The notes below the pieces were generated by a model. It saw only the letters and a list, made by a program, of their open reading frames with translations. It was not told where the DNA came from and did not search any database. Shown in pieces: positions 50,793-63,472 of a DNA stretch of 64,000 bases; position 1 is the first letter of the stretch; each line of letters begins with the position of its first letter. Source of the stretch: Candidatus Cloacimonadales bacterium (GTDB lineage Bacteria; Cloacimonadota; Cloacimonadia; Cloacimonadales; JAIOQZ01); NCBI GenBank assembly GCA_963662655.2, contig CAXXTU010000002.1, positions 2,752,001-2,816,000 of the forward strand, read 5' to 3'. A program made the position numbers and the translations under genes.

Positions 50793-53141
50793 ATGAGAAA
50801 TTTCATTTTATTGTTCTTATCCGTACTGTCGTTGTACGCTTTTGCACAAAATCCACTGGATAATCCTGAAAGCATTGTCTACGATTACGAAAACAGCCGC
50901 TATCTCGTATCGAGCCTGGGGAACCGGAAAATCTACTCGATCGACGAGGATGGCAATATCGCGTTATTCAAGGAAAATTTCGGCCAGACATACGGAATCC
51001 ACCTGCGGGGCGACCGTTTGTATGTATCCAGCGGATCCGTTCTGAGAAGCTTCTTCCTGGAGAATGGCGCGGAAGTCATGAGTCTTCACATTCCGGCGGA
51101 GGTCAATCTGGACGGAATAACATCCGACGACCACGGTTTCATTTACGTGCTGGACACGGGAGGATCGCTTCATAAGGTCGATCCCAAAACCGAAACCTAC
51201 GAAACCCTCATCGATGACGGAATCGAGGGACTGCCGCAGGATTTGGTTTACGACCGCTTCAACAATCGCCTTCTCATCGCCGCGTGGCAGGCGAATTCGC
51301 CCATCATGGGATACGATCTTGATACGCAAATGCTTTACGAGGTTGTCGATACCGACTACGGCCGTTTTGACGGGATCAATATCGACTACGAAGGCAACGT
51401 CTATGCCTCCACCTGGATTACGCAGGAAGTGCTGATGTGGGACAACGCCTTCTCGGAGGATCCCAAGGTCATCGGGACCGGCATGGACGGCCCAACGGGG
51501 CTCTGCTACAACGCAAGAGATCACGTGATCGCCGTACCGAACTTCGACGGCAATTTCATCAAGTACATCGATCTGAAAAGCCTGTTCAATTTTGAGCAGG
51601 AAGTCCTGATAGACAACCTGACCGGCGCAAACAACCTCTGTCTTGCCGATGTCGATCTGGACGGGCAGCAGGATATCGTCGCTGCCGGAACGGATCAGGT
51701 CCATTACTGGCTCGCCGATGGAGCCGGCGGATTCGGCGGTGACGTTTTCCCGGGAAGCTTTCCGGGAACCTGTTTCGTCAGCGCGTTCGATATGGATAAC
51801 GACACCGACGAAGATGTGCTCTTCTGCTGCATGGAAAGCGGGAAGCTGGGCTGGATCGAGATCGGAGAGGCGTTCACGGAGCATGTCATTGACGACGATA
51901 TGGTTCATGTGCGCTCGCTCGACGCTGGTGATATGGACGATGACGGCGACGTGGACGTCGTGTGCGGAATCGGCGATGAAACCGGCGGAATGATCGCGCT
52001 TTACGAGAACACGGGCGGGATGGTGTTCGCCGATCCCGTGGCCATCCCCGACGCGGATGACGTTTATCACAGTGTGTGCTTCTTCAATAAAGACAACGAT
52101 ACGGATCTGGATATTCTGGCCGTGGGTTACACGGATCAGGGGGTGCGCTGGTGGGAGAATCTTGGTAACGGCGATTTCGACGACAGTGGAATCGATTCTT
52201 CTTTCGAGGGCGCAACCTGCGTTGCCGCTGCGGAAATCAATCAAAGCGGTTTTCCGGATGTCGTTGCGGCTTCCTGGGAAGATTCCCGCGTGAAGATGTG
52301 GCGTCAGTCCAACGGTAATTTCTACCAGAATCCCATCGAAAACAACGCCCCGGGCGCCAGGTGGGTCCAGCCGGTCGATTTCGATCAGGATGGACACATG
52401 GATATCGTCGGATGCGGAGACGCACCGGGTTGCATTTACTGGTGGAAGAAGGGCGTAGAGCTCGATTTCACCGGATACCGGTACGAATTTACGGGATCGC
52501 GTTGTGTGGCTGCCGGTCATTTCGATGAGGATGAAAGGATGGATATGGCTGTCATCGGCGAATCAAGCCTGGCCTGGCTGAAGAACGTTCCCGGCGCGCA
52601 CCCGGTAATTGCGGAGTTCGATGCCTACATCATCTACGGTGCACGCATGGCGACCTTCCACTTCATCGATCGATCCTGCGGAGAAAACCTGAGCTACGCC
52701 TGGGATTTCAACAACGACGGAGCCGTCGATTCGGGCGAGCGGAATCCCTATTTCACCTATGAAGCGTACGGGGAATACACCGTCAGCCTCACTGTATCCA
52801 ATGGTGAAGAAAGCCATACCCTGACGCTGGAAGATTTCATCGTCTATGATCATACGGGCGCGGACTGCGACGATACCGCTCGGGTTCCTCTAACGATGGA
52901 CGCCTACCCCAATCCCTTCAATCCGCGGGTATCGTTCCAGATCAAGCGCTCTCCAGCCGACAGGGATTTACGCGTCGACATCTACAACGCAAAAGGCCAG
53001 AAGGTTCAGTCGATTGCCGTGCCGGAAAAGAGCGAAGTGGTGAATTGGGATGCTACGGGAGTGGCAAGCGGGATTTACTACTGTCGGTTGTGCGCTGCGG
53101 ACAGGGTGGTTCAGACGCGGAAAATAACGTTGATGAAATAA
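50793..53141 (+). CDS. Secreted SMP-30-like propeller + FG-GAP/VCBS + PKD + T9SS-type sorting domain protein
   Basis: PESIVYD, FDGI; DxDxDxDxD repeats; SYAWDFNNDG...YTVSLTV; YPNPFNP...KITLMK. Confidence 0.8.
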   Translation: MRNFILLFLSVLSLYAFAQNPLDNPESIVYDYENSRYLVSSLGNRKIYSIDEDGNIALFKENFGQTYGIHLRGDRLYVSSGSVLRSFFLENGAEVMSLHIPAEVNLDGITSDDHGFIYVLDTGGSLHKVDPKTETYETLIDDGIEGLPQDLVYDRFNNRLLIAAWQANSPIMGYDLDTQMLYEVVDTDYGRFDGINIDYEGNVYASTWITQEVLMWDNAFSEDPKVIGTGMDGPTGLCYNARDHVIAVPNFDGNFIKYIDLKSLFNFEQEVLIDNLTGANNLCLADVDLDGQQDIVAAGTDQVHYWLADGAGGFGGDVFPGSFPGTCFVSAFDMDNDTDEDVLFCCMESGKLGWIEIGEAFTEHVIDDDMVHVRSLDAGDMDDDGDVDVVCGIGDETGGMIALYENTGGMVFADPVAIPDADDVYHSVCFFNKDNDTDLDILAVGYTDQGVRWWENLGNGDFDDSGIDSSFEGATCVAAAEINQSGFPDVVAASWEDSRVKMWRQSNGNFYQNPIENNAPGARWVQPVDFDQDGHMDIVGCGDAPGCIYWWKKGVELDFTGYRYEFTGSRCVAAGHFDEDERMDMAVIGESSLAWLKNVPGAHPVIAEFDAYIIYGARMATFHFIDRSCGENLSYAWDFNNDGAVDSGERNPYFTYEAYGEYTVSLTVSNGEESHTLTLEDFIVYDHTGADCDDTARVPLTMDAYPNPFNPRVSFQIKRSPADRDLRVDIYNAKGQKVQSIAVPEKSEVVNWDATGVASGIYYCRLCAADRVVQTRKITLMK

Positions 53142-53346: not shown

Positions 53347-54693
53347 GGCACTGTTGCATATTAAGTGGGTGAATGGGTATTCAGATATCCGCAACATTGC
53401 AGAACCTTCAATCTGAAGTATGAGAAGTCCTTGTATCCATACGCTCTCTTTATAATGGTTCGAATGACGTTGTTAACCGCTTCTGCCTTGGCATTCGTGA
53501 TTCTATGCTTGAACCAGTTCAACACAATATGCAATCTCTTCATAATCGTTCTTGCAAGTGCCTTCAGTGGCTCGAAGACGGTTTTCTGAATAACTCTGCA
53601 CCACTCTTCAATCATCGGCTTCGCTTCTTCTTGCGTAATATCGTCTTCGAAAATCGATAGTAAATCTTCTTTGAGCAAATAGGCTTCGTAAAGGGGATGA
53701 TTTAGCGTCTCCAGTTTCTTGAGTCGGGCTTGATGGTTTTCTTTGTGATTGTGTTTTCTGGTCAAAACCAACCACCGGTCGTGTTTCTTGCTCTGACGCA
53801 ACTTGTCAGATTCAAAATCTCTCTGAAGTTCTCGTCGTACTTCTTCCACTTTTCTGTTGACCAGGCGGCTGAAATGGAAACGATCAAATACGATCATATC
53901 GGCACTCCAACACTCGGAAACAGCGCCGATATATGAACCACTGAAATCCATTGTTACGGTATCAATCCAGCGGAGTCGTCGTTCGTATTTTCGAAACAAC
54001 TCCTTCGCACTTTCTTTCGATTTGCCCATTGTCAGGTCGATCACACACCCGTCCTCATGGTTTGTGATAACCGTTGCATACTTATGCCTTCGCTTATAAC
54101 CAATCTCGTCAATTGCAATCTGATCGACATTCGGAACTCGTCCTCTATAACCCTTTTCCAACTTGGATAACTCAATTTTGTCGATTCGATAAATCGTACT
54201 CCGATCCACACCGAATATCCGTGCTACAGAAGCATTGTCTGAACGAAGCGTGAACTGGAGAACCTTATTGCCGAAGTCTTTAGAGTGTCGATTGAGACCC
54301 TCGGCAATATCCTGTTGTTCAGTTTTCACTCCACACTGAGCGCAGTTGATCCGGCGAAGCGTCAGCACAAGTACTACGGGACGACAGGATATGGATGCAT
54401 GAAGAATTTTGCGGACTCGATGATCATAAACTGCTCCCACAATACCGCATGTAGGACAACGTGGCTCATCTTCCTTTCGAACATGGACTTCAATGCATGG
54501 ATAAGTTTGATACGTACCTTCGATTATCTGGTCGGCAGAATAACCTTGCAAAGCAAACAACGTTTTACAGACTTGTTTTCTGAGAGGATCATTCATCTCT
54601 ATCTCCTTGTTGTGGTGATTAGGAGATTGTACGAGATCGGGTGATTCCTCTCAATCTTTTTTTCGACTTACCCACTAAGTTTGCAACAGTGCC
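53347..54693 (-). mobile_element. ISL3-family insertion sequence (1347 bp)
   Basis: 24-bp terminal inverted repeats GGCACTGTTGCA...AGTGGGT (21/24 match); A-rich flanks AAAAATAA / AAAAAAAA. Confidence 0.9.
53361..54596 (-). CDS. ISL3 transposase
   Basis: CPTCG...CAQC zinc finger, IAIDE, VTMD, IVFDRFH, AEAVNN, RAYGY. Confidence 0.93.
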   Translation of the reverse strand: MNDPLRKQVCKTLFALQGYSADQIIEGTYQTYPCIEVHVRKEDEPRCPTCGIVGAVYDHRVRKILHASISCRPVVLVLTLRRINCAQCGVKTEQQDIAEGLNRHSKDFGNKVLQFTLRSDNASVARIFGVDRSTIYRIDKIELSKLEKGYRGRVPNVDQIAIDEIGYKRRHKYATVITNHEDGCVIDLTMGKSKESAKELFRKYERRLRWIDTVTMDFSGSYIGAVSECWSADMIVFDRFHFSRLVNRKVEEVRRELQRDFESDKLRQSKKHDRWLVLTRKHNHKENHQARLKKLETLNHPLYEAYLLKEDLLSIFEDDITQEEAKPMIEEWCRVIQKTVFEPLKALARTIMKRLHIVLNWFKHRITNAKAEAVNNVIRTIIKRAYGYKDFSYFRLKVLQCCGYLNTHSPT

Positions 54694-57122: not shown

Positions 57123-58953
<1,831 letters not shown>

Positions 58954-59828: not shown

Positions 59829-61337
<1,509 letters not shown>

Positions 61338-61344
61338 AATACCC

Positions 61345-61887
61345 TCAATTTTGCGGTATTTTTTCTTTTATGAATCGTTCGAGATTGTTTTTGACGGAAC
61401 CGTCGATAATCAGCGAACTCGTTTCAGCATGGAAACCGGCAATGAGCTCCGGTTTGATGCGGGTCTTGAATTCTACATTCTTTTTCAGGATGTCTTCCAG
61501 AAGATGGGTTATGTTCTGCATGGTTTGTCCATCGTGCTCTCTCGCCAGCGAAAGCATCACCTTCACGCGTTTGTTCTCATCCAGGATGAAGTCCTCGATG
61601 CAGTTCAACAGCGTTAAGATAATGGAAAAACGACGCTTCTTCACCAGCAGGACGAACAGCGATCTCCAGCGATCGGCGAAATGGAGGTTCTCTGCCAGCG
61701 CTTCAACCAGCTTTTTCTTTCGCGGATACGAAAGGATCATCATGTGGACGGAGCGGATGATTTCCGGATTCCCCGTCAGCACTTCATGCAAGCCGCGAAC
61801 ATCATCCAGCAAATCGTTATGCTCATCGGGAGCGATCAGACTGATGAAAGCCTTGGCGTACCGCTTGGAAATCTCAAAATCTCTCAC
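61345..61887 (-). CDS. atpH: ATP synthase delta
   Basis: SKRYAKA, LIAG, IDGSV; operon position. Confidence 0.9.
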
Positions 61888-62366
61888 TTGCTCAACCTGT
61901 CTTGCAGTAGTTTATTGATCAGCTTTTTGTCCGTTTCCGGATCCATTTTATCGGCAATGATTGTTGCAGACACGGATGCGATCATACCGGCAAGCTCTAC
62001 CTCGAGCTCTTCCATGGTACGCTTGCGTACATGGGCTACCTGAGCCTCGGTCTCCTGAACGATATCCTTCTGTTGCTTCTTGGCGCCATCCAGGATTTCC
62101 TTCGCCTGATCCTCGGCTTCGCGTCTTGCGCGGTGCTGCATTTTGCGAATCTCTTCTGAAGATTCGATTAGCTCCTGTTTCTGTTGATCCAGGATTTTGG
62201 CCGCTTCCTCTTTGGAGCGAGCTGCTTCATCGATATCGCCCGATATCTTCTCCGATCTTTCTGTAAGCCATTTCTTCATCGGCTTGTACAGAATCTTGTT
62301 CAGTATGATCAGAAGCAGAACAAAGTTCGCGATAACGATCAAGAGAGAATAATCAATTGTGATCAT
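61884..62366 (-). CDS. atpF: ATP synthase b
   Basis: NFVLLLIILNKILYKP then coiled coil. Confidence 0.92.
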   Translation of the reverse strand: MITIDYSLLIVIANFVLLLIILNKILYKPMKKWLTERSEKISGDIDEAARSKEEAAKILDQQKQELIESSEEIRKMQHRARREAEDQAKEILDGAKKQQKDIVQETEAQVAHVRKRTMEELEVELAGMIASVSATIIADKMDPETDKKLINKLLQDRLSK

Positions 62367-62410: not shown

Positions 62411-62662
62411 TCAGGTGGAGAATATCAACAACAGCGCGATAACCAGCGAGTAAATACCGGTTGACTCGGAAACTGCCTGACCGACCAGCATGGTACGCAT
62501 GAGCAAGTTCTGATTTTCGGGTGAACGGGCGATACCTTCACATGCCTTGCCGGCGACGAAACCTTCGCCAACGCCGGGGCCGAGCGCTCCGATGCCCATA
62601 CAGATGCCTGCGCCAAGAAACGCCGCAGCTTTTGCGATGCCTTGTGCCAATGTCATTTCCAT
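62411..62662 (-). CDS. atpE: ATP synthase c, single hairpin, Na+-type motif
   Basis: GPGVGEG (E33)...GQAVSESTGIY (E66, S67, T68, Y71). Confidence 0.95.
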   Translation of the reverse strand: MEMTLAQGIAKAAAFLGAGICMGIGALGPGVGEGFVAGKACEGIARSPENQNLLMRTMLVGQAVSESTGIYSLVIALLLIFST

Positions 62663-62719
62663 TTTTTTCCTCCTGTTTTTTACACAGTCTTGTATGTTTT
62701 CATTACAAATATCTATTCT

Positions 62720-63472
62720 TTACAGTGCAAAGATCAGCAAGAAGGCGATAACCAGCGAATAGATCGCTGTCGATTCCGATACCGCCGCCCCCAGGAACAT
62801 CGTTCGGATCAGGTTATTCTTCTGTGCGGGAAAGCGTCCAATCGAATCGTTCGCGCGTCCGGCGACGAATCCGATACCGGAGCCGGGGCCGAGGGTTCCG
62901 AGCCCGATGGAGAGTCCCGCGCCGATGTAGGCCGCCATCTTCATCACGATGTTTGCCATGCTCGCGTTTTCCGGCTGGAAGGGAGTTGAGAACATGAGAA
63001 GGAGCGAAACGACCAGCGCGAAGATGGAGCTCGATTGCGAAAGCGCTTGCCCGATGAGCATGTTACCCATCAGAATGTTGGATTGACGCGGGTTGCGCCC
63101 GATAGACCTGCAAGCCTCGCCTCCTGCGTAACCGGCGCCGAAAGCCGGGCCAACGGCACCGAGTCCCACTGCGATACCCGCAGCGAGCAAAGCCGCAAAT
63201 CGATACCACCCGCCTTCAACGACGTCGATGCCGCCGAACAGAAGCAGGAGCGCGACAACGAGGGCGAAGATTCCGCCGGTCTGTGTCGCGGCCTGGCCGA
63301 TCAGCATCGTGCCGAACAGCTTGTCGTAAGCCTTGGGTTGCCTCGATAGAGCAAGGGTTGCCTGATCGGCGATCGATCCGCTGCCGATGCCGCTCGTTAA
63401 CGATGAAATTCCCACGCCGATTCCGGCGCCCAGATAAGCCGCGATCTCTACGATCTCTTTTGTGAATACCAT
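62720..63472 (-). CDS. atpE: ATP synthase c-like subunit, three fused hairpins
   Basis: Three c repeats with RQP/RNP/RFP loops; carboxylate position Q64, Q146, E233. Confidence 0.9.
   Translation of the reverse strand: MVFTKEIVEIAAYLGAGIGVGISSLTSGIGSGSIADQATLALSRQPKAYDKLFGTMLIGQAATQTGGIFALVVALLLLFGGIDVVEGGWYRFAALLAAGIAVGLGAVGPAFGAGYAGGEACRSIGRNPRQSNILMGNMLIGQALSQSSSIFALVVSLLLMFSTPFQPENASMANIVMKMAAYIGAGLSIGLGTLGPGSGIGFVAGRANDSIGRFPAQKNNLIRTMFLGAAVSESTAIYSLVIAFLLIFAL

What the first reader, a model, noticed from the sequence alone, without database searches (positions are those of the whole stretch)
62411..63472. F-type ATP synthase with a triplicated c subunit holding one carboxylate, plus a normal c: predicted hybrid rotor
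Seen: between atpB and atpE lies a 250-aa gene made of three complete c hairpins. The essential Glu is Gln in hairpins 1 and 2 (GQAATQTGGIF, GQALSQSSSIF) and kept only in hairpin 3 (AVSESTAIY). The inner-helix ligand position is S31/A113/I200 instead of E/Q. Known: Acetobacterium woodii has a hybrid ring with a two-hairpin c1 lacking one site; triplicated c subunits are known from the archaeal A-type enzyme of Methanocaldococcus jannaschii. Inference: each copy would put two adjacent ion-free positions in the ring, lowering the ion/ATP ratio and possibly letting the cell tune coupling or favour pumping. I do not recall this arrangement being characterised in a bacterial F-type enzyme.
Basis: partly seen in the sequence, partly recalled or inferred. 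Interest (0 to 1): 0.85.

Follow-up and report, generated by a model that had tools for sequence, protein, structure and literature searches.

The report
Three-hairpin rotor subunit, F-type ATP synthase
Beside the normal sodium-binding rotor protein of its only ATP synthase, this bacterium encodes a conserved fusion of three rotor units with no complete sodium site of its own, which probably puts an ion-blind stretch into the rotor ring so that fewer ions are used per ATP.

Summary
Confirmed. A 250-aa gene between atpB and atpE holds three c hairpins (Gln/Gln/Glu), beside a normal two-carboxylate Na+ c, in the only rotary ATPase operon found in this Cloacimonadota genome. It is intact in 105 of 112 phylum genomes that have F-type subunit a, and is under purifying selection (dN/dS 0.043). 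One correction: sites are shared between neighbouring hairpins, and the kept Glu233 lacks two Na+ ligands (Ile200, Phe151). So three positions, not two, lack a complete Na+ site. Q/Q/E is one of seven patterns (32 of 106 genomes); 10 of 106 have no carboxylate. Hairpin 3 keeps its Ser-Thr-Tyr donor half in 47 of 47 genomes whose hairpin 1 has no acid, which points to the normal c as ring neighbour. Related 3-5-hairpin subunits occur in Desulfobacterota and other phyla. Best reading: an extended Acetobacterium woodii c1-like spacer that lowers Na+/ATP (inferred, not shown). Against it, one Glu-to-Gln change abolishes ATP synthesis in a Bacillus PS3 ring. I found no paper describing it, but three key papers were unavailable. 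This scan reported the same subunit before in other genomes.

The parts
62720..63472 (-). Three-hairpin c subunit (250 aa, 'c3'; atpE1-like)
   Evidence: ORF; Pfam PF00137 x3; AF2 model; best fold match 4bem_J
63233..63460 (-). Hairpin 1 (about residues 5-80): inner S31, outer Q64 (codon 63281-63283), then T65, G66, F69. No acceptor and no Tyr donor.
62987..63220 (-). Hairpin 2 (about residues 85-162): inner A113, outer Q146, then S147, S148, F151. No acceptor; partial donor without Tyr.
62723..62959 (-). Hairpin 3 (residues 172-250): inner I200 (aligns with E. coli c I28), orphan E233 (codon 62774-62776), complete donor S234-T235-Y238
   Evidence: contact with c in the complex model
62663..62719 (-). 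57-nt A/T-rich spacer with AGGAGG before atpE; c3 instead starts 3 nt after the atpB stop. Suggests more c than c3 is made (inference).
   Evidence: sequence; similar spacers in 14 of the 15 genomes printed, one cut by its contig end
62411..62662 (-). Normal c subunit (83 aa) with two-carboxylate Na+ motif E33, E66, S67, T68, Y71
   Evidence: Pfam; aligns to Fusobacterium 3zk1 and Ilyobacter 1yce; ligands per PMC3692424
63476..64000 (-). atpB, subunit a (3' part; full gene 297 aa, runs past the window). R239 and Q279 kept; no acid at the E. coli E219 or H245 positions.
61884..62366 (-). atpF, subunit b
61345..61887 (-). atpH, delta
59829..61337 (-). atpA, alpha
   Evidence: TIGR00962, 833 bits
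58959..59816 (-). atpG, gamma
57520..58923 (-). atpD, beta
   Evidence: TIGR01039, 821 bits
57123..57527 (-). atpC, epsilon

Best explanation
c3 is a low-copy member of the rotor ring of a Na+-coupled F1Fo ATP synthase. It co-assembles with several normal c subunits and fills three hairpin positions. A Na+ site needs Glu plus inner Glu/Gln from one hairpin and Ser-Thr-Tyr from the preceding hairpin. The last hairpin of c3 completes the site of the next normal c, but c3 itself has no complete site. E233 is an incomplete site: a H+ site, a weak Na+ site, or permanently protonated. The ring keeps its size but carries two or three fewer Na+ per turn. If it had 11 hairpins with one c3 (assumed from A. 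woodii and Fusobacterium), that is 8-9 ions per 3 ATP instead of 11. The enzyme would make ATP from the Na+ gradient built by Rnf/Nqr and a decarboxylase. Shown: sequence anatomy, conservation, selection, half-site logic. Inferred: ring membership, copy number, ring size, ion number, direction of work.
For: Direction of the shared site: PMC3692424 passages and section 2.3 of bioRxiv 10.64898/2026.10.01.756066. Test on 89 non-Cloacimonadota proteins with 3 or more hairpins: Tyr in hairpin i tracks a full acceptor in hairpin i+1 at 260 of 267 junctions (39 both present, 221 both absent, 7 discordant); first hairpins have the acceptor in 87 of 89 and Tyr in 0 of 89; last hairpins have Tyr in 87 of 89 (mostly related Desulfobacterales, so not independent). 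In 106 Cloacimonadota genomes Tyr is in hairpin 1 in 0, hairpin 2 in 6, hairpin 3 in 105. Ser-Thr-Tyr of hairpin 3 is intact in 47 of 47 genomes whose hairpin 1 has no acid, so its partner must be another subunit. A normal Na+ c follows directly in 102 of 106. dN/dS is 0.043 for c3, 0.091 for a and 0.009 for c over 12 pairs. The F1-facing loop Pro is kept in 116, 116 and 112 of 116 homologues. Complex model of c3 with two c: score 0.75, best control 0.00 (mark reached by 116 of 157 solved and 2 of 215 mismatched pairs; runs agree in at least 96% of contacts; partner pLDDT at least 87). Its interface joins S234, T235, Y238 with E33 and E66 of c, but it may pass by likeness to solved rings. The genome has only these 4 c hairpins, one subunit a, no V-type I, two RnfD/NqrB-family genes, a decarboxylase beta subunit and a membrane PPase. 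Precedent: the A. woodii ring of 9 c plus one c1 makes ATP from 90 mV (PMC9171764).
Against: A single E56Q in a fused c10 ring of Bacillus PS3 abolished ATP synthesis (PMC8809890 passage). On an 11-ring the gap between working sites would be 98-131 degrees, against 65 in A. woodii (arithmetic); 131 exceeds one 120-degree catalytic step. Fewer ions raise the driving force needed: 125-194 mV at 2.67 ions/ATP versus 91-141 mV at 3.67, for 32-50 kJ/mol. The complex model names confident contacts only on the hairpin 3 side, none on hairpin 1. There are no protein, expression or stoichiometry data. E233 is kept in 88 of 106 genomes, and a Gln-to-Ile change at the inner ligand is recalled (no call) only to weaken Na+ binding in Propionigenium, so 'blind' may overstate hairpin 3.
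Confidence: 0.6

Rival explanations
1. c3 is in the ring, but it biases the enzyme to ATP-driven Na+ pumping or acts as a brake. F1 can drive the blind arc past subunit a, while an ion gradient cannot.
For: PS3 E56Q result. Blind arc of up to 131 degrees. Even longer runs of Gln in Desulfobacterales: EQQQ in 33 and EQQQQ in 4 of 89. Six of six genomes of family f14 have no carboxylate in c3.
Against: It is the only rotary ATPase found in a genome with Rnf/Nqr-type and decarboxylase Na+ pumps, so something should use the gradient. Enzymes with site-poor rings did synthesise ATP at about 90 mV. PMC12590816 proposes Rnf plus F1Fo synthesis in this phylum from genomes alone.
Confidence: 0.15
2. 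The main job of c3 is structural: it seeds or closes the ring, fixes its size, or gives an asymmetric seat for gamma-epsilon. Loss of ion sites is secondary.
For: Site patterns vary (seven patterns; at least 6 changes at hairpin 1 and 8 at hairpin 3 on the c3 tree) while the scaffold stays under strong selection, even with no acid (dN/dS 0.025-0.060 in the 3 of 45 pairs with dS under 1.5). atpI lies in the operon. Hairpin 1 has lost the Gly-Pro of the inner-helix motif.
Against: A purely structural part would not need hairpin 2 to be acid-free in 98 of 106 genomes. Hairpin number varies from 2 to 5 in relatives, including a two-hairpin form in G201.
Confidence: 0.15
3. c3 is not part of the working rotor: it is a transient assembly factor, or forms its own rings.
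For: No direct evidence of incorporation. In E/Q/E forms a c3-only ring could make one full site per copy.
Against: In Q/Q/E, G/Q/E and acid-free forms a c3-only ring has no full site, yet the donor triad is kept in 47 of 47. The complex model supports binding to c (with the likeness caveat).
Confidence: 0.08
4. c3 is a decaying duplication or an assembly artefact.
For: It has lost residues that are essential in ordinary c subunits.
Against: Open frame in 106 genomes from 14 families. dN/dS 0.043. Each hairpin position forms its own clade across families (support 0.93, 0.99, 0.86).
Confidence: 0.02

Closest known systems
Acetobacterium woodii (and Clostridium aceticum) subunit c1 of the Na+ F1Fo hybrid rotor, PDB 4BEM
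   Same: Fused c gene before normal atpE in an F-type Na+ operon. Glu-to-Gln loss of sites. Same end polarity as the commonest form of this family: first hairpin Q..ETSGIF without Tyr, last hairpin QTTGIY with Tyr. Best sequence and fold match.
   Different: c1 has two hairpins and one full site, leaving one empty position. c3 has three hairpins, here no full site, and an orphan Glu in the last hairpin. In a weak 73-residue tree, hairpins with c1-like motifs (P0245, P0132) group apart from c3 hairpins, which hints at separate origin; no formal test was run.
Fusobacterium nucleatum two-carboxylate Na+ c11 ring (PDB 3ZK1)
   Same: The normal c has the same E-E-S-T-Y ligand set.
   Different: Homo-oligomer of single hairpins, all with a site.
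V/A-type K/c subunits (Enterococcus hirae K, 2BL2; Eubacterium callanderi c; M. jannaschii triplicated c, the last recalled)
   Same: Fused hairpins with fewer sites than hairpins; same fold.
   Different: They belong to A/V-type enzymes. In double hairpins the site lies inside the subunit, with donor in hairpin 1 and Glu in hairpin 2. c3 scores far below the V-type K cut-offs and is closer to F-type c.
Multi-hairpin c subunits of Desulfobacterota, Latescibacterota, Babelota/TM6 and others (undescribed in the papers I could search)
   Same: a, multi-hairpin c, normal EESTY c gene order in most loci; similar subunit a.
   Different: Mostly 4-5 hairpins with a full acceptor in hairpin 1. In Desulfobacterales loci no F1 genes were seen within the fetched flanks.

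Membership tests
F-type ATP synthase subunit c (PF00137) | Helix-loop-helix hairpin matching ATP-synt_C, encoded in an atp operon | tested here: met
   3 stretches, 147 bits against a cut-off of 24; operon genes; model
F-type ATP synthase subunit c (PF00137) | One active carboxylate per hairpin | tested here: not met
   Q64, Q146; only E233
Na+-binding c subunit | E/Q inner ligand plus E, with S/T-S/T-x-x-Y from the preceding hairpin | tested here: met
   Met by the 83-aa c: E33, E66, S67, T68, Y71
Na+-binding c subunit | A complete Na+ site on any hairpin of c3 | tested here: not met
   S31/Q64, A113/Q146, I200/E233 with F151 as donor
A. woodii-type hybrid rotor (c1 plus c2/3) | Fused and single c genes in one F-type operon | tested here: met
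A. woodii-type hybrid rotor (c1 plus c2/3) | Two hairpins, with Q..ET site in the first | tested here: not met
   Three hairpins; hairpin 1 has S/Q (c1 as)
A. woodii-type hybrid rotor (c1 plus c2/3) | Fused subunit physically in the ring at fixed stoichiometry | not testable with these tools
   Only a model, which may reflect likeness to solved rings
A. woodii-type hybrid rotor (c1 plus c2/3) | Na+-coupled ATP synthesis by the hybrid enzyme | not testable with these tools
   Needs reconstitution; genome context only
V/A-type subunit K | Scores at K-family cut-offs and lies in a V/A operon | tested here: not met
   66.6 against 211 bits, 50.9 against 188 bits; no V_ATPase_I match in the genome
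N-type (alternate) F1Fo ATPase | No delta; alpha and beta of the alternate clade | tested here: not met
   Delta present; alternate-clade models below their cut-offs

The most novel reading that the evidence does not exclude
This is an F-type ATP synthase whose rotor crosses three consecutive Na+-blind positions, about a whole catalytic step, and still makes ATP. The orphan Glu233, flanked by Ile as in the E. coli H+ site, carries one H+ per turn, giving a mixed Na+/H+ ring. The 2-5-hairpin series across phyla is a general way to set the ion/ATP ratio at constant ring size.
Probability: 0.2. Interest if true: 0.9.

Novelty: new variant of a known kind. Interest (0 to 1): 0.68.

Why it matters
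In the papers I could read, F-type rings are nearly always single hairpins with one site each, and the one solved exception (A. woodii) lacks a single site. An engineered single dead site stops ATP synthesis in Bacillus PS3. A natural, strongly selected subunit with two to four adjacent dead positions, present in about half of a phylum and in many sulfate-reducer relatives, tests how far an Fo motor can coast without ion torque. It also bears on how low the ion/ATP ratio can go in energy-limited anaerobes. Energy budgets for these organisms that assume one ion per hairpin would need revision. Cultured hosts with four- and five-hairpin relatives exist (Desulfatibacillum alkenivorans DSM 16219, Desulfosarcina variabilis, Desulfocarbo indianensis).

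Tried and rejected
Literature: ten full-text searches found no description of a three-hairpin bacterial F-type c. Matthies 2014 and Brandt and Mueller 2015, a survey of hybrid rotors, are not held. Zubareva 2020 was seen only as a citation. Brandt and Mueller may already list some multi-hairpin genes, since Desulfobacterales genomes were public then, so the absence from print is not certain. No supplements were opened; those of the 2026 preprint are closed and may tabulate such subunits. The Pelobacter paper, the 2014 F0F1 phylogeny and the Ace Lake paper passages did not mention fused c. The promoter/terminator scan gave counts near the shuffled expectation, 7 against 4.3 and 10 against 6.6. 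An IQ-TREE run timed out; the FastTree replacement is weak at deep nodes, so I claim no order of events between phyla. The idea that subunit a is specially adapted is untested: none of 122 distinct a tails has an acid or His at the E219/H245 positions, but I had no proper control set of Na+ operons without a fused c. Rejected: pseudogene, V-type K, N-ATPase.

Full report
Observation. The window ends in an F-type atp operon on the minus strand: atpB, a 250-aa gene (62720-63472), an 83-aa atpE (62411-62662), then b, delta, alpha, gamma, beta and epsilon. atpI and a small upstream ORF lie just beyond the window. Pfam finds three ATP-synt_C stretches in the 250-aa protein (c3) and one in the small c. 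AlphaFold2 gives three hairpins at pLDDT 96. The best solved match by sequence and fold is A. woodii c1.

Host and context. All 43 loci found with c3 are titled Cloacimonadota or uncultured bacterium. The genome (98.95% complete) has exactly four c-hairpin matches, all here, one subunit a and no V-type I. Its four PF00006 hits are alpha, beta and two others that I did not identify. It has two RnfD/NqrB-family genes, one decarboxylase beta subunit and one membrane PPase. The small c carries the E-E-S-T-Y ligands of the Fusobacterium Na+ ring.

Distribution. Of 202 phylum genomes at least 80% complete, 113 match c3, 112 have F-type a and 86 have V-type I, 81 of them in family f3. This agrees with the F versus V/A split in PMC12590816 (passages), which does not mention the c subunit. 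I fetched the c3 region of 106 genomes with a full three-hairpin frame; 105 of these are among the 112 with subunit a. The other seven are: one c3 cut by a contig end and two with only short contig-edge hits (none fetched), one two-hairpin form (G201), and three f3 genomes with weak hits (two fetched, each with a single c). Carboxylate patterns in the 106: EQE 43, QQE 32, EQQ 8, EEE 8, GQE 5, QQQ 5, GQQ 5. A normal Na+ c follows in 102; none was seen in the fetched flank of four. A set of 116 proteins of 230-262 aa (the query and 115 of the 120 best listed, of 546 hits) gave a similar spread. On a tree with the ligand columns masked (115 sequences, one frameshifted sequence left out), hairpin 1 changes at least 6 times and hairpin 3 at least 8 times.

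Selection. Over 12 non-overlapping close pairs from 42 distinct loci, pooled dN/dS is 0.043 for c3, 0.091 for a (one pair had a truncated a) and 0.009 for c. Acid-free c3 genes give 0.025-0.060 in the 3 of 45 pairs with dS under 1.5. The relaxed-selection refutation fails.

Site logic. A Na+ site lies between two hairpins (PMC3692424 passages). The Glu and inner Glu/Gln come from the later hairpin and Ser/Thr-Ser/Thr-Tyr from the earlier one (bioRxiv 10.64898/2026.10.01.756066, abstract, outline and passages including section 2.3). I tested this on 89 complete proteins with three or more hairpins from 91 non-Cloacimonadota loci; two were dropped, one open-ended and one with a gap. One search kept only the best 80 of 594 hits. 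Tyr in hairpin i matches a full acceptor in hairpin i+1 at 260 of 267 junctions, but only 63 of 267 in the reverse direction. These are mostly related Desulfobacterales, so the count is a pattern, not a p-value. Applied here: hairpin 1 (S31/Q64) and hairpin 2 (A113/Q146) have no acceptor. Hairpin 3 has E233, but I200 inside, which aligns with I28 of E. coli c (a weak alignment), and its donor has F151. Only the outgoing S234-T235-Y238 triad is complete. In the 106 genomes the hairpin 3 inner residue is Ile in 102 and Val in 4, and the triad is intact in 47 of 47 genomes whose hairpin 1 has no acid. A c3-only ring would give that triad no partner, so the partner is most simply the normal c. The complex model agrees: score 0.75, best control 0.00, with contacts between this triad and E33/E66 of c. 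It names no confident contact on the hairpin 1 side and may pass by likeness to solved rings.

Mechanism. Most likely c3 enters the ring in low copy; its start overlaps the atpB stop region, while c has its own strong ribosome-binding site (inference). It then removes two or three Na+ sites at constant ring size. With an assumed 11 hairpins that gives 2.7-3.0 ions/ATP instead of 3.7, needing 111-194 mV at 32-50 kJ/mol (energies from PMC9171764, of which I read part 1, passages and the Discussion). The state of E233 is open. It is kept in 88 of 106 genomes and replaced only by Gln, which fits a neutral, protonated residue, a H+ carrier or a weak Na+ site. In 16 of those 88, and in none of the 18 with Gln, the donor hairpin adds an Asp beside it, a hint that the site can be active. 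The main difficulty is mechanical. One E56Q stops synthesis in the PS3 c10 ring (PMC8809890 passages), and the gap here would be 98-131 degrees against 65 in A. woodii. Hence the rivals: a pump bias, or a mainly structural role.

Comparison and novelty. It works like A. woodii c1 and shares its end polarity in the commonest form (PMC7911925 passages), but it fails the two-hairpin, one-full-site definition. It is not V-type K or N-type. The wider family has 2-5 hairpins and includes Desulfobacterota, Latescibacterota, a Verrucomicrobiota bin, Babelota/TM6, Hydrogenedentota, Margulisbacteria and Eubacteriaceae entries. Ten searches found no description. The 2026 preprint has no occurrence of 'triplic', 'cloacimon' or 'desulfobact' in its main text, though it mentions 'several multi-hairpin structures' once. 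PMC13343851 notes several atpE copies in Desulfatiglandales but not fusions (passages). PMC7793690, PMC3604715, PMC3543383, PMC4154653 and PMC9324843 were seen as passages only. Matthies 2014 and Brandt and Mueller 2015 could not be read. The M. jannaschii triplicated c and the Propionigenium ligand mutants are recalled and come from no call.

Earlier notes of this scan describe the same subunit in other genomes and the four-hairpin relatives. They are not independent support; my reading was set before I saw them. Verdict: real, conserved, a new variant of the hybrid rotor, function inferred; interest 0.68.

Noticed in passing
P0215 (1139 aa): A single chain with 15 c hairpins, all with Glu; its cluster is named Promethearchaeota/Hodarchaeota. 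Candidate one-piece 15-hairpin rotor, longer than the 13 cited for Methanopyrus.
   Followed up: partly
P0163 (968 aa) and P0169 (524 aa): Chains with 12 (Pfam) and 7 c hairpins, all scored hairpins with Glu. P0169 is from Gracilibacteria; P0163 is rich in Trp where Gly is expected, as if TGA=Gly had been misread. Possible one-piece rotors in bacteria.
   Followed up: partly
P0132 (435 aa), P0166 (303 aa, partial, Eubacteriaceae): Motifs like A. woodii c1 but with 5 and at least 3-4 hairpins, only the first with Glu.
   Followed up: partly
L049-L059, L090-L169: In Desulfobacterales the multi-hairpin c lies in an a, c(n), c, b, b cluster with no F1 genes in the fetched flanks, perhaps a second Na+ Fo module.
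   Followed up: partly
L232-L235, L237, L238 (family f14, 1.5-1.6 Mb single-contig genomes): All six have c3 with no carboxylate at all, yet keep it under selection.
   Followed up: partly
L246 (G201): Two-hairpin 164-aa form that looks like hairpin 1 plus hairpin 3.
   Followed up: no
L001 7476-8369 (atpB): Subunit a has an N-terminal extension of about 80 residues with an extra hydrophobic stretch, shared by Cloacimonadota (about 300 aa) but not Desulfobacterales (224 aa), and no acid at the E219/H245 positions.
   Followed up: partly
L001 9066-11772 (upstream of the operon): Bactofilin and M23 peptidase genes, preceded by ParA/ParB-like ORFs (judged by eye), run directly into the atp operon.
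   Followed up: no
window 53361-54596 (-): ISL3-family transposase.
   Followed up: no
window 50793-53141 (+): 782-aa protein with FG-GAP repeats, a PKD domain and a C-terminal sorting/FlgD-like domain.
   Followed up: no
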